A stretch of DNA of 64,000 nt from NCBI GenBank assembly GCA_900753405.1, contig CAADYZ010000015.1:6712-70711 (forward strand), in the 5' to 3' direction. This document shows positions 24,049 through 27,000 of this stretch, piece after piece. Made by a program: the position numbers. The stretch comes from Campylobacteraceae bacterium (GTDB lineage Bacteria; Campylobacterota; Campylobacteria; Campylobacterales; Campylobacteraceae). Positions within the stretch are counted from its first letter, which is position 1, and every line of letters starts with the position of its first letter.

Positions 24049-27000
24049 TAACTAAATTTGGTTTTAACAATTTAAAAAGGTAAAAAAATGGCAAGAAAAA
24101 ACTTAATCAACGGAAGCATTTGGGACGAATACTCAAATAAAGTTCAAGAGGCGATGAATGCGCCGAAAAATATGGGCGAGATCAGCCCTGAGCGGGCAAA
24201 AGAGCTTGGCTGTAAGCTGATCGTTGCGGACTACGGCGCGGAGAGTTGCGGTGACGCGGTGAGGCTTTACTGGGCGGTGGATGAAGCAACCGAGATCATC
24301 AAAGAGGCGAAGTTTAAGAGCTTTGGCTGCGGGACGGCGATCGCAAGTAGTGATTATATGACTGAGCTTTGCAAAGGCAAAACAGTGAGCGAGGCGGTGA
24401 AGATCACAAATCTTGATGTCGAGCGAGCGATGCGTGACGAGCCTGAAACGCCTGCTGTGCCGCCGCAAAAGATGCACTGCTCGGTGATGGCGTATGATGT
24501 CATCAAAGCTGCCGCAGCGCAATACAAAGGCGTGGATATGTCGCATTTTGAGGATGAGATCATCGTCTGTGAGTGCGCGCGCGTCTCGCTCGGGACGATC
24601 AAAGAGGTCATCCGCCTAAACGACCTAAAAAGCGTTGAGGAGATCACGCAATACACAAAAGCGGGCGCGTTTTGCAAAAGCTGCATCAAACCCGGCGGTC
24701 ACGAGGAAAGAGACTACTACTTGGTCGATATTTTAGCCGAAGTTCGTGGCGAAATGGAGGCAGAGAGGTTGCGTAAAGTCGCAGACGCTGGGCTTAGCGG
24801 AAGCGGCGTGAGCGGAGACTTGGCGTTTGAGGAGCTAACGCTTGTCAAGCAACTTCACGCCATCGAAGCGGTCATTGACGAGCAAATTCGCCCAATGTTG
24901 ATGATGGATGGTGGGAATATGGAGATTATCGATGTGCAAACTAGCCAAGACAACATCGATGTTTATATCCGCTATCTCGGCGCGTGCAGCGGTTGTGCGA
25001 GTGGCGCAAGCGGCACGCTTTACGCCATCGAAGACACGCTGCAAAACACGCTTAGCCCGAAAATCCGCGTTTTGCCTGTGTGAGGCTTTGCGAATTTGTC
25101 AAAACCAAATTTGGTTTAAGGATTTGCGGTGAAAAGGCTGTTTTTACTGACGCTTCTTTGCGTTTTGGGCTTTGCTCAGAGCTTGAAAATCGCCTCGTTG
25201 AATGTTGAAAATTTGTTTGACGATGTGTATGACGGCAGTGAATATGCAGACTTTTCACCGCCAAAATGCGCGAAATTTCTTGCTAAAAAAGAGTGTGACA
25301 CAAAACGCATCGCCTTCAAACTCAAAGAAAAACAACGCTACGAAGCAAAACTGCAAGCCGTCTCGGCGTTTTTGGCGAAGTTGGACGCGGATGTTGTGGC
25401 GTTGCAAGAGGTCGAAAACGAGCGTGTTTTAAGCAGTGTTGCGAGGCTTTCTGAGTTTAAACACTTTGCCTTTGCCACCACCAAAAACGCCCCCGTTGGG
25501 CTTGGATTTATCTCCAAATTTCCACTCACAAACCAGCAAAAATTCATCGTGAAAAATGTCAAAACGCGTCCCGTTTTTGCCGCACAAGTTGCGGGCGTGA
25601 CGCTTTTGAATGTGCATTTTCCAGCCTACTCAAACGGACGCAAAAAGCAAAACGCCGCCGCCTTCACCGCCGCGAGCGCCGCCAAAAACTTTAAAAACGC
25701 TGTAATCTTAGGCGACTTCAACTCGCGCTACACGCTGCAAAAATTTAGCGGCAAAAGGGATGATTTTCTGCTTTTAAACGAGGTTAGAAGTGGCGAGTTT
25801 GTCAGTCTGTGGGAGGACGCGAAAAAGCCCTTTCAAACTCGCAAAAAAGGCAGTCACAAAAACGGCAAGATCGACAACATTTTGCTGAAAAAGAGCCTGT
25901 TCGGGCGTTACGAAAAAGGAAGCTTTGAGGTGATCGACACAGGCGGTTTTAGCGACCATAAAGCGCTAGTTTTTAGACTAAAAGGAGTTTGATGAAGTGG
26001 ATTTTGTGGCTTGTTGTGGCGTGGCTTTGTTTTGTGTTTGTCAATGGTTTTAACGCGCAGATGAAGCGGCGGCGAGACGAGCGAGAGAGCCAGCTGCAAG
26101 AGGTGATCAAACGCAAAAAAGAGGCTAAATTGGAGTCTGACAAGGAGGAGAGATGAAGTTTTTACAAAATGAAGAGGTTACAAAAGTCTTTAAATTTCGC
26201 CACGCGTGCAAGGAATTTGACCCAACCAAAAGCGTTAGCGAGGCGGATTTACGCACGATTTTAGAAGCAGGCAGGCTGAGTCCTAGCTCGTTTGGTTTTG
26301 AGCCGTGGAGGTTTTTGGTTTTGCAAAGCGAGCAGGTGCGCCAAAAAATTTTCGACTCGACTTGGGGCGGGCAGGACGCGCTTGAAAATGCGAGCGCTTT
26401 TGTGGTGATTTTGGCGCGCACGAACAAAGGTTTGCACCCGCAAAGCGAGTATTTACGGCACATTATGCGCGATGTCAAAGGGCTAAGTCAAGCGGCACAA
26501 GAGGCGCGTTTGGTGCGATTTACGAGCTTTGTCAAGGAGCATTTTTGCATTTTTGAAGACGAAGGCAAGGTTTTTGACTGGGCGTGCAAGCAGTGTTACA
26601 TCGCACCTACTTGGCATCGACTCGCTTGCGATTGAGGGTTTTGAGCGAAAAAGCGTGAGTGAGATTTTGCAAAATGAGGGGCTGCTAGACGGCGAGGAGT
26701 TTGGCGTGGCGGTGATGGCGGCGTTTGGCTACAAAAAACACGAGCCAAAACATCCACAAACCAGACAAGATTTTGCAGAAGTAGTCAAATTTGTTTGAGT
26801 CAAAAGGGGCGCAAGAGGCGGTTTTGCGGGCGTTGCAAGAGGAGATTTTGCTAAAACGCTCAGAGAATTACCGCAACATTTTTGCAGGCAAAATGGCGCA
26901 AAATGTCGTTGAATTTGTCGCTAAAACTTACGGCGGGCAGCTTAAATTTTTGTGGCTAAACTCGCCTAAAAGCGCGGTTTTTCGCCACCAAAAAACTCTG

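What the first reader, a model, noticed from the sequence alone, without database searches (positions are those of the whole stretch)
26153..26798. RdxA/FrxA-family nitroreductase disrupted by a roughly 32-bp internal deletion
The two ORFs together reproduce a complete oxygen-insensitive NAD(P)H nitroreductase. The roughly 11 residues between the conserved CYIA and LG(I/L)DS motifs are missing and the reading frame shifts (..KQCYIA|PTWHRLACD* versus ..HLLGIDSLAIEGFERK..). Loss of this enzyme class is the classical route to metronidazole/nitroimidazole resistance in Helicobacter and Campylobacter. The gene is translationally coupled to an upstream 55-aa membrane ORF and to the EEP nuclease gene.
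Basis: partly seen in the sequence, partly recalled or inferred. Interest (0 to 1): 0.5.

Follow-up and report, generated by a model that had tools for sequence, protein, structure and literature searches.

The report
Broken nitroreductase gene, repeatedly broken elsewhere
A drug-activating nitroreductase gene in an unnamed Campylobacter is knocked out here by a 26-base deletion, and public assemblies of the same species carry at least eleven other independent knock-outs of it, a pattern that in Helicobacter goes with metronidazole resistance.

Summary
Aligned with intact 223-codon alleles of the same species, the window lacks exactly 26 bp after position 26605, not about 32. This removes codons 152-160 (LGNMLTTAA) and shifts the frame. 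The result is a 160-aa product with a 9-residue nonsense tail, plus an untranslated 63-codon remnant.

The gene is an FMN nitroreductase (PF00881). It belongs to the NfsB/FrxA-like group and is much closer to H. pylori FrxA than to RdxA. It is not an RdxA orthologue.

The lost part includes half of a long core helix, two core strands and invariant residues E170 and F172, so the allele is almost certainly null. An assembly artefact is unlikely, because the identical truncated product is recorded in NCBI, ENA and Logan (3 contigs). Programmed frameshifting is excluded in practice.

The main new result is that the gene is polymorphic. Most conspecific contigs are intact, but I found 12 distinct null alleles: four nonsense, seven frameshift alleles and this deletion. 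Neighbouring genes in the same contigs have none. In a sample chosen through a neighbouring gene, 5 of 17 contigs were null.

Selection for loss through nitro-drug exposure is the likeliest cause but is untested. This is a new member of a known kind and of moderate interest.

The parts
26153..26605 (+). Native codons 1-151 of the nitroreductase gene (5' part, ends ...KQCYIA)
   Evidence: PF00881 hit at 59.5 bits. Identical to conspecific alleles apart from SNPs.
26605..26606 (+). Deletion junction. 26 bp (CTTGGAAATATGCTCACAACCGCCGC), codon 152 to the second base of codon 160, are missing between these two bases.
   Evidence: DNA alignments with intact alleles L001 and L002 and 20 further conspecific contigs. 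Only 1 nt of microhomology.
26606..26635 (+). Out-of-frame tail: nine codons (PTWHRLACD) and the premature TGA stop at 26633-26635
   Evidence: The product is identical to P0121 in the protein collection.
26607..26798 (+). Stranded 3' remnant in the native frame: codons 161-223 (LLGIDSLAIEGF...VVKFV) plus the original stop. It is no longer joined to the start of the gene.
   Evidence: Scores E=2.5e-27 against the orthologue profile. Contains invariant E170 and F172.
25992..26156 (+). 54-codon small ORF with a hydrophobic N-terminus and a charged tail. Its start overlaps the stop of the EEP gene and its stop overlaps the nitroreductase ATG (ATGA).
   Evidence: Called as a 54-aa gene in every conspecific contig. 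No Pfam or NCBIfam hit. Absent upstream of the orthologue in another species.
25129..25992 (+). Endonuclease/exonuclease/phosphatase-family gene (287 aa), first gene of the overlapping string
   Evidence: PF03372, 45.7 bits. Synteny.
26824..27261 (+). YjbR/MmcQ-family gene downstream. Alternative upstream starts exist (for example TTG 26791). It may suffer polarity from the premature stop (inference).
   Evidence: PF04237, 54.6 bits. The pairing of nitroreductase and yjbR is also kept in another Campylobacter species (L003).
27266..27288 (+). Terminator-like hairpin followed by a T run, directly after the yjbR stop; the likely end of the transcription unit
   Evidence: This is a consensus scan only.

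Best explanation
Window 26153-26798 is a null allele of an FMN-dependent NAD(P)H nitroreductase of the NfsB/FrxA-like group. The host is an unnamed Campylobacter species.

Shown: a 26-bp deletion removes codons 152-160 and shifts the frame. Translation therefore ends after 160 residues, the last nine of them nonsense. The product lacks the end of the long helix 137-161, core strands 165-169 and 192-201, and the C-terminal segment. The lost region includes the family-invariant E170 and F172 of the IEGF motif and the nearly invariant G201, Y202, T212, R213 and Q214.

Inferred from E. coli NfsB: the equivalent residues (E165, G166, K205, R207) hold FMN. No active dimer can therefore form.

Shown: the allele is one state of a polymorphic locus. 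Most conspecific contigs carry the intact 223-codon gene. At least 12 different null alleles have arisen independently, several on an otherwise identical haplotype. The gene is conserved and uninterrupted in related species.

Inferred: this pattern means loss is repeatedly favoured, or at least tolerated, in the short term but does not persist. The most likely driver is exposure to nitro-prodrugs such as metronidazole, other nitroimidazoles or nitrofurans, which this enzyme class reduces to toxic products. Null mutants would survive treatment, as with rdxA/frxA in Helicobacter and rdxA in C. jejuni.
For: Lesion and frame.

Family: PF00881. The intact orthologue P0001 matches PDB 7jh4, 8qyg and 7rzp at E=1e-50 to 1e-62, and FrxA 2h0u at E=3.8e-45. 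An AlphaFold model of P0001 has pLDDT 97 and TM 0.94 to 8qyg.

What is lost: secondary structure. Invariant and nearly invariant columns. Within the deleted stretch, L152, N154, M155, A159 and A160 are at least 95% conserved.

Not an artefact: the exact 160-aa product is recorded from NCBI, Logan and ENA on 3 contigs, the longest 515,872 bp.

Recurrent loss, verified at DNA level:
- a deleted T at codon 15 (L056)
- an added A in each of two A6 runs, codons 64 and 202 (L037-39)
- R122* (L044-47, L057)
- a deleted T in a T5 run, codon 140 (L050)
- W143* (L040-43, L059)
- an added A at codon 161 (L051)
- a deleted A and an added A in the same A5 run, codon 174 (L052, L053)
- Q211* (L048-49)

Recurrent loss at protein level only: Q74* (P0257) and a frameshift after Q74 (P0256).

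The window, W143* and Q211* alleles are otherwise identical in sequence, so these are separate recent events.

Sample drawn through the neighbouring small ORF: 4 full-length and 3 null configurations, or 12 versus 5 contigs.

In all these contigs nifU, the EEP gene, the small ORF and yjbR have no nonsense or frameshift changes (and the gene tables).

Orthologues at 47-71% identity in other species are all uninterrupted, at about 223 aa.

Literature: inactivation of rdxA/frxA and metronidazole resistance in Helicobacter (PMC3734016); rdxA loss in H. pylori and C. jejuni (PMC9218692, citing Ribardo 2010).
Against: No phenotype, drug-exposure data or sample habitat could be obtained, so the link to nitro-drugs is by analogy only.

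The protein is FrxA/NfsB-like, not RdxA-like. In H. pylori the contribution of FrxA alone is disputed (PMC3734016).

Only 64 kb of the genome is visible. A second RdxA-type enzyme elsewhere could be the main activator, which would make this loss irrelevant to resistance.

The count of 12 null alleles is partly ascertainment-biased, because I fetched most contigs through truncated proteins. The ratio of null to synonymous changes is not clearly above what a completely unconstrained gene would show. Missense to synonymous is 11:7 here, against 8:5 in yjbR and 16:22 in the EEP gene.

Some single-base homopolymer indels seen in a single metagenome contig (L050-L053, L056) could be assembly errors.
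Confidence: 0.65

Rival explanations
1. Neutral decay. The nitroreductase is dispensable in this species' present niche, and null alleles accumulate by drift, with no benefit and no connection to drugs.
For: Within the species the missense to synonymous ratio is high (11:7), similar to neighbouring yjbR (8:5) and far above nifU (2:28). The gene has a patchy distribution and variable neighbours across Campylobacter and Helicobacter, which is typical of accessory genes. Many of the indels sit in short A or T runs, where mutation is frequent anyway.
Against: Every orthologue in other species is uninterrupted at about 223 aa, with 63 of 223 columns at least 90% conserved. The gene has therefore been under long-term constraint. 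All null alleles are young: each has a single lesion on an otherwise unchanged haplotype, and only one allele has two lesions. No null lineage has accumulated further decay. Neighbouring genes with comparably relaxed missense ratios carry no null alleles in the same contigs.
Confidence: 0.27
2. Assembly or sequencing artefact. The organism's real gene is intact, and the 26-bp gap was created during assembly or consensus calling.
For: I could not inspect reads. The look-up of encoding contigs did not return a contig for the truncated product. The three records could derive from one read set.
Against: The exact 160-aa truncated product and its 74-aa partner are recorded from three sources (NCBI, ENA, Logan) on 3 contigs. 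If they derive from one read set, they still represent different assemblies of it. A clean 26-bp loss with no flanking repeat longer than 1 nt is not a known assembler or homopolymer error mode. The rest of the window allele is normal, with neighbouring genes uninterrupted. Independent null alleles of other kinds at the same locus show that such alleles really exist in this species.
Confidence: 0.05
3. The gene is still functional, either through programmed +1 frameshifting at the junction or as two separately translated polypeptides that assemble.
For: The downstream frame is open from 26487 and has possible TTG starts at 26529 and 26574.
Against: Conspecific strains encode the ordinary single-frame gene, so the split is derived and not designed. 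Even with a frameshift, nine residues of the core helix would be missing, five of them at least 95% conserved. Gene callers' fragment P0131 would begin with 10 unrelated residues.
Confidence: 0.02

Closest known systems
H. pylori FrxA (HP0642; PDB 2h0u), NAD(P)H-flavin oxidoreductase whose inactivation contributes to metronidazole resistance
   Same: Same superfamily and same subgroup. The intact orthologue aligns over its full length (E=3.8e-45; 36% identity, TMq 0.81). Both occur in Campylobacterota. Both are found in nature as frameshift, nonsense and intact alleles.
   Different: Identity is only 36%. The closest solved relatives are instead S. aureus NfoR (7jh4), Bacillus nitroreductases (8qyg, 9gjx) and the H. 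influenzae enzymes (7rzp and others), at 42-46% identity. Orthology to frxA is not established. Metronidazole reduction by this enzyme is untested.
H. pylori / C. jejuni RdxA, the principal metronidazole-activating nitroreductase
   Same: Same PF00881 fold. The same population signature of many independent inactivating mutations, as described for rdxA (PMC3734016; PMC9218692 citing Ribardo 2010).
   Different: A distant relative only (3qdl: E=2.7e-21, 23% identity, TMq 0.69). This gene is not an rdxA orthologue. Whether the species also has an rdxA cannot be seen from a 64-kb window (none within it).
H. bizzozeronii rdxA contingency gene (C8/C9 homopolymer slippage, PMC3734016)
   Same: A nitroreductase switched off by indels in homopolymer runs. 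Five of the twelve null alleles here have indels in A5, A6 or T5 runs.
   Different: The runs here are short (5-6 nt) and scattered, unlike a long dedicated repeat. The other seven alleles are not in such runs: four nonsense alleles, the 26-bp deletion, a one-base deletion in a T3 run and an inserted A at a single A (the exact lesion of the P0256 frameshift was not seen at DNA level). The window's 26-bp deletion cannot revert, so this is not phase variation.
[quoted passage not shown]
   Same: Same fold and conserved FMN-site motifs (N-terminal R..A.K and the IEGF motif). It is the best NCBIfam hit.
   Different: The intact orthologue scores 87 bits against a cut-off of 227, with 20-25% identity. 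It is not an NfsB equivalog.

Membership tests
Nitroreductase superfamily (Pfam PF00881) | Sequence match to the family profile above the gathering score | tested here: met
   The window's 5' ORF scores 59.5 bits against a cut-off of 23.5. The 3' remnant alone is below Pfam detection but scores E=2.5e-27 against the orthologue profile.
Nitroreductase superfamily (Pfam PF00881) | Alpha+beta FMN-binding fold of the NfsB type | tested here: met
   Tested on the intact conspecific orthologue P0001, not the window product. AlphaFold pLDDT 97, TM 0.94 and rmsd 1.1 A to 8qyg.
Nitroreductase superfamily (Pfam PF00881) | Uninterrupted reading frame encoding the whole domain (a functional member) | tested here: not met
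   A 26-bp deletion, a frameshift and a stop at 26633-26635. 63 native codons are stranded.
FrxA / NfsB-like NAD(P)H-flavin oxidoreductase subgroup | Closest characterised relatives belong to this subgroup, with a full-length alignment | tested here: met
   7jh4 NfoR E=7.9e-62, 8qyg E=2.2e-61, H. influenzae 7rzp E=5e-50, FrxA 2h0u E=3.8e-45. All cover roughly residues 6-223 of the query.
FrxA / NfsB-like NAD(P)H-flavin oxidoreductase subgroup | NAD(P)H-dependent reduction of nitroaromatics or flavins | not testable with these tools
   Needs an enzyme assay of the intact allele.
E. coli-type NfsB (NCBIfam NF008275 equivalog) | Score at or above the curated cut-off of 227 bits | tested here: not met
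   The intact orthologue scores 87.2 bits and the window's 5' ORF scores 51.6 bits.
RdxA (H. pylori HP0954 type) | RdxA is the nearest characterised homologue | tested here: not met
   3qdl scores E=2.7e-21 at 23% identity and ranks far below FrxA and NfoR-type enzymes.
RdxA (H. pylori HP0954 type) | Loss of the gene raises the metronidazole MIC | not testable with these tools
   Needs culture of the organism or heterologous expression.
Contingency (phase-variable) nitroreductase, as in H. bizzozeronii rdxA | A long simple-sequence repeat within the gene whose slippage reversibly switches the frame | tested here: not met
   The longest runs in the gene are A6. The window's lesion is a 26-bp non-repeat deletion. 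The null alleles are spread over 11 different sites.

The most novel reading that the evidence does not exclude
This FrxA/NfsB-like enzyme, rather than an RdxA orthologue, may be the main nitro-prodrug activator of an uncultured Campylobacter species. Its many independent null alleles in public metagenome assemblies would then be a direct, culture-free record of antibiotic selection (metronidazole or nitrofuran) acting on a gut commensal or pathobiont. Missense variants at invariant residues (S46L, S43R, G201D) in full-length alleles would be further resistance alleles.
Probability: 0.35. Interest if true: 0.55.

Novelty: new member of a known kind. Interest (0 to 1): 0.35.

Why it matters
A single pseudogene is routine, but this locus was broken at least twelve separate times in a species known only from assemblies, while remaining intact in most strains and in related species. 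That is the same signature that marks rdxA/frxA in Helicobacter pylori.

If loss of this gene does confer nitroimidazole or nitrofuran tolerance, resistance in an uncultured Campylobacter could be read directly from metagenomes. The allele series would then give a ready-made map of residues essential for activity, covering the nonsense, frameshift and conserved-site missense variants. It would also show that an FrxA/NfsB-type enzyme can be the selected target in Campylobacter, and not only RdxA.

Tried and rejected
1. A plasmid megablast of 25100-27300 found no match, so the locus is not a known plasmid segment.

2. A JGI metagenome scan for a 28-mer shared by all alleles (TGGGCGTGCAAGCAGTGTTACATCGCAC) found nothing, so that collection gave no allele frequencies.

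3. The GTDB genome scan with P0001 did not return the window's own species. The nearest hits were unnamed Campylobacter MAGs at 66-69% identity, then C. troglodytis and H. aurati at about 53%. The NifU search gave C. lanienae, C. hyointestinalis and C. fetus at about 80% as the nearest named species.

4. Direct look-up of contigs encoding the window's own truncated products returned nothing on record, although the cluster table lists them on 3 contigs. I could not compare the window's junction with an independent DNA copy.

5. I looked for a direct repeat that would explain the deletion. ACTTGG occurs twice, 30 bp apart, but recombination between those copies would give an in-frame 30-bp loss, which is not what is seen. 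The real junction has 1 nt of microhomology.

6. I looked up the unmutated progenitor of the window's haplotype (T10/V121, 223 aa). That exact sequence is not in the collection. It occurs there only with A31V added (P0127).

7. A literature search for six of the sample and run accessions, to learn habitat or drug exposure, gave no hits.

8. Phase variation was considered and rejected (short runs, irreversible deletion). Programmed frameshifting was also considered and rejected, because sister strains have an ordinary single-frame gene.
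Full report

Yes. The + strand carries ORF 26153..26635 (160 aa) and, in another frame, ORF 26529..26798 (89 aa).

The first ORF matches Pfam Nitroreductase PF00881 at 59.5 bits, against a cut-off of 23.5. Its best NCBIfam hit, far below cut-off, is the NfsB model. The second ORF is too short for Pfam. Against a profile built from 89 orthologues, however, the two stop-to-stop frames score E=9e-74 and E=2.5e-27, and nothing else in the 64-kb window scores.

A protein search with the two halves joined returned many uninterrupted 223-aa proteins, including two at 93-94% identity, P0001 and P0002.

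**2. The exact lesion**

I fetched the DNA encoding P0001 and P0002 (L001, L002). These loci have the same gene order as the window: iscS, nifU, an EEP-family gene, a 54-codon ORF, the nitroreductase, then yjbR.

Aligned to them, the window lacks exactly 26 bp, CTTGGAAATATGCTCACAACCGCCGC, between 26605 and 26606. The sequence layout is:
- Native codons 1-151 end at 26605 (...KQCYIA).
- Nine out-of-frame codons (PTWHRLACD) follow, then a TGA at 26633-26635.
- Codons 161-223 survive in the old frame at 26607-26798.

The residues lost outright are L152-A160 (LGNMLTTAA).

The junction has only 1 nt of microhomology. The nearby ACTTGG...ACTTGG repeat would have produced a 30-bp in-frame loss, which is not what is seen.

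**3. What the protein is**

The intact orthologue matches solved structures over its full length:

| Structure | Protein | E-value |
|---|---|---|
| 7jh4 | S. aureus NfoR | 8e-62 |
| 8qyg | Bacillus nitroreductase | 2e-61 |
| 7rzp, 7ldq, 7s1a | H. influenzae enzymes | about 1e-49 to 5e-50 |
| 2h0u | H. pylori FrxA | 3.8e-45 |
| 3qdl | H. pylori RdxA | 2.7e-21 |
| 1ds7 | E. coli NfsB | about 4e-11 |

An AlphaFold model built with the 89-sequence alignment is confident (pLDDT 97). It superposes on 8qyg and 7jh4 at TM 0.93-0.94 with 45% identity. Against FrxA the identity is 36%, and against RdxA 23%.

The gene fails the NCBIfam NfsB equivalog cut-off, at 87 bits against 227. It is therefore an NfsB/FrxA-like NAD(P)H-flavin/nitro reductase. 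It is not an RdxA orthologue and not an E. coli-type NfsB.

**4. Consequence of the deletion**

In the model, residues 152-160 lie inside the long helix 137-161. Everything after them is also lost from the translated product, including strands 165-169 and 192-201 and the C-terminal segment.

Across the family, the conserved positions affected are:
- Within the deleted stretch, L152, N154, M155, A159 and A160 are at least 95% conserved.
- In the lost C-terminal part, E170 and F172 are invariant.
- Also in the lost part, D165, S166, I169, G171, G201, Y202, T212, R213 and Q214 are at least 90% conserved.

From established knowledge of E. coli NfsB, the equivalent E165/G166 and K205/R207 contact FMN. 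This is an inference from the alignment offset. The 160-aa product therefore cannot be an active enzyme.

A programmed frameshift would still leave nine core residues missing. Sister strains have the ordinary single-frame gene, so the split is a derived defect.

**5. Is it an artefact?**

The exact 160-aa product (P0121) and its 74-aa partner (P0131) are in the protein collection from NCBI, ENA and Logan. They sit on 3 contigs, the longest 515,872 bp. I could not retrieve those contigs or see reads, so this check is indirect. Even so, a clean 26-bp loss without a flanking repeat is not a usual assembly or homopolymer error.

**6. The main new finding: the locus is repeatedly broken in this species**

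The same 90%-identity cluster holds full-length variants and many truncated ones. I fetched the contigs and checked the DNA. Besides the window's deletion, there are eleven other null alleles.

| Lesion | Site | Found in |
|---|---|---|
| Deleted T | codon 15 | L056 |
| Added A in each of two A6 runs | codons 64 and 202 | L037-39, at least 3 runs |
| Q74* | codon 74 | P0257, protein level only |
| Frameshift | after Q74 | P0256, protein level only |
| R122* (CGA to TGA) | codon 122 | L044-47, L057 |
| Deleted T in a T5 run | codon 140 | L050 |
| W143* (TGG to TAG) | codon 143 | L040-43, L059 |
| Added A | codon 161 | L051 |
| Deleted A in an A5 run | codon 174 | L052 |
| Added A in the same A5 run | codon 174 | L053 |
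| Q211* (CAA to TAA) | codon 211 | L048-49 |

The window, W143* and Q211* alleles are identical at every other position of the gene. The R122* allele differs from them by one further substitution. These are separate recent hits on one haplotype.

The strains carrying them differ by 1-2.5% in the flanking EEP and yjbR genes. The flanking genes carry no nonsense or frameshift change in any of these contigs (and the gene tables).

Most of these contigs were found through truncated proteins, so I also sampled through the neighbouring 54-aa ORF. That sample gave 7 distinct configurations, 4 full-length and 3 null. Counting the contigs collapsed as similar, it is 12 full-length against 5 null.

Two of the four full-length configurations carry a substitution of their own that may affect function. 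S46L falls at a residue invariant in 87 of 87 relatives from other species, and C145Y falls at a less conserved position (C in 68%). Other full-length alleles carry S43R, G201D or D23N at positions 95-99% conserved.

**7. Interpretation**

The gene has been held intact over long periods. All orthologues at 47-71% identity are uninterrupted, and 28% of columns are at least 90% conserved. Yet it is now broken often and independently, and no null lineage shows further decay. Loss therefore seems to be favoured, or at least tolerated, over short periods but not to persist.

This pattern is known for rdxA and frxA of Helicobacter under metronidazole. Loss of rdxA is also the resistance route in C. 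jejuni (PMC3734016; PMC9218692 citing Ribardo et al. 2010). I therefore rate selection by nitro-prodrugs as the most likely driver.

The link is by analogy only, for four reasons:
- No phenotype or sample metadata could be obtained.
- The enzyme is FrxA-like, and the role of FrxA alone is disputed in H. pylori (PMC3734016).
- The rest of the genome, which might hold an RdxA, is not visible.
- The within-species missense to synonymous ratio (11:7) is no higher than that of neighbouring yjbR (8:5), so plain relaxed constraint remains a serious rival.

The locus is not a contingency gene in the H. bizzozeronii sense. The homopolymer runs are only 5-6 nt, the lesions are spread over 11 sites, and the window's deletion cannot revert.

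**8. Context**

In another Campylobacter species the orthologue is not preceded by the EEP gene or the small ORF, but it is still followed by yjbR. In C. troglodytis it sits beside an HxlR-type regulator and an aldo-keto reductase.

The organism is an unnamed Campylobacter. The window's GC content is 47.5%, and NifU is about 80% identical to that of C. lanienae, C. hyointestinalis and C. fetus.

**9. Verdict**

This is a genuine, well-defined null allele of an FrxA/NfsB-like nitroreductase. By itself it is ordinary and is a new member of a known kind. Its interest is raised to moderate by at least 12 independent null alleles of the same gene in public assemblies of the species. That makes a drug-selection hypothesis directly testable.

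Noticed in passing
window 27262-28023 and 25093-25129: The roughly 760-nt non-coding stretch between yjbR and the galU-like gene on the minus strand is packed with copies of a palindromic element (about AAAACCAAATTTGGTTTT). Copies lie near 27278, 27313, 27541, 27725 and 27946. There is also a 98-nt direct repeat (27442-27539 against 27851-27948, 81% identical). One further palindrome copy lies between nifU and the EEP gene. This looks like a REP- or MITE-like intergenic repeat family.
   Followed up: no
window 25992-26156: A 54-codon ORF with a hydrophobic N-terminus (MKWILWLVVAWLCFVFVNGF) and a highly charged tail. Its start overlaps the EEP stop and its stop overlaps the nitroreductase start. 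It is called in every conspecific contig and its sequence is listed in 93 blocks of the collection. It has no family hit and is absent upstream of the orthologue in another species. All three of its within-species changes are non-synonymous.
   Followed up: partly
L058:1662-2333, L054:1662-2333, L002:5001-5672, proteins P0122, P0123, P0128: Several full-length conspecific alleles carry single substitutions at family-invariant or nearly invariant residues: S46L (invariant), S43R (99%), G201D (99%) and D23N (95%). C145Y also occurs, at a less conserved position (C in 68%). These may be hypomorphic or null missense alleles of the same gene.
   Followed up: partly
window 25992-26798 compared with L040-L049: The small ORF and the nitroreductase are identical, apart from the null mutation, in strains whose flanking EEP gene differs by about 2.5% and whose yjbR differs by 1-1.6%. 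This could be a locally shared haplotype spread by recombination. The unmutated form of this haplotype (T10/V121) is not in the protein collection.
   Followed up: partly
L051:1972-2644, codon 161: The single-A insertion that disrupts the L051 allele (CCCTACTTGG to CCCTAACTTGG) lies about 3 nt from the right-hand boundary of the window's 26-bp deletion. This may be coincidence or a locally fragile site.
   Followed up: no
window 26791-27261: The start of the yjbR-like gene is ambiguous. Gene callers gave products of 137, 145, 150 or 156 aa in different contigs. The longest version (TTG 26791) overlaps the end of the nitroreductase gene. The pairing of nitroreductase and yjbR is conserved in another Campylobacter species (L003).
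   Followed up: partly
window 30168-30239 and 30256-30327: Two adjacent tRNA genes on the + strand are the only Rfam matches in the window at gathering threshold.
   Followed up: no
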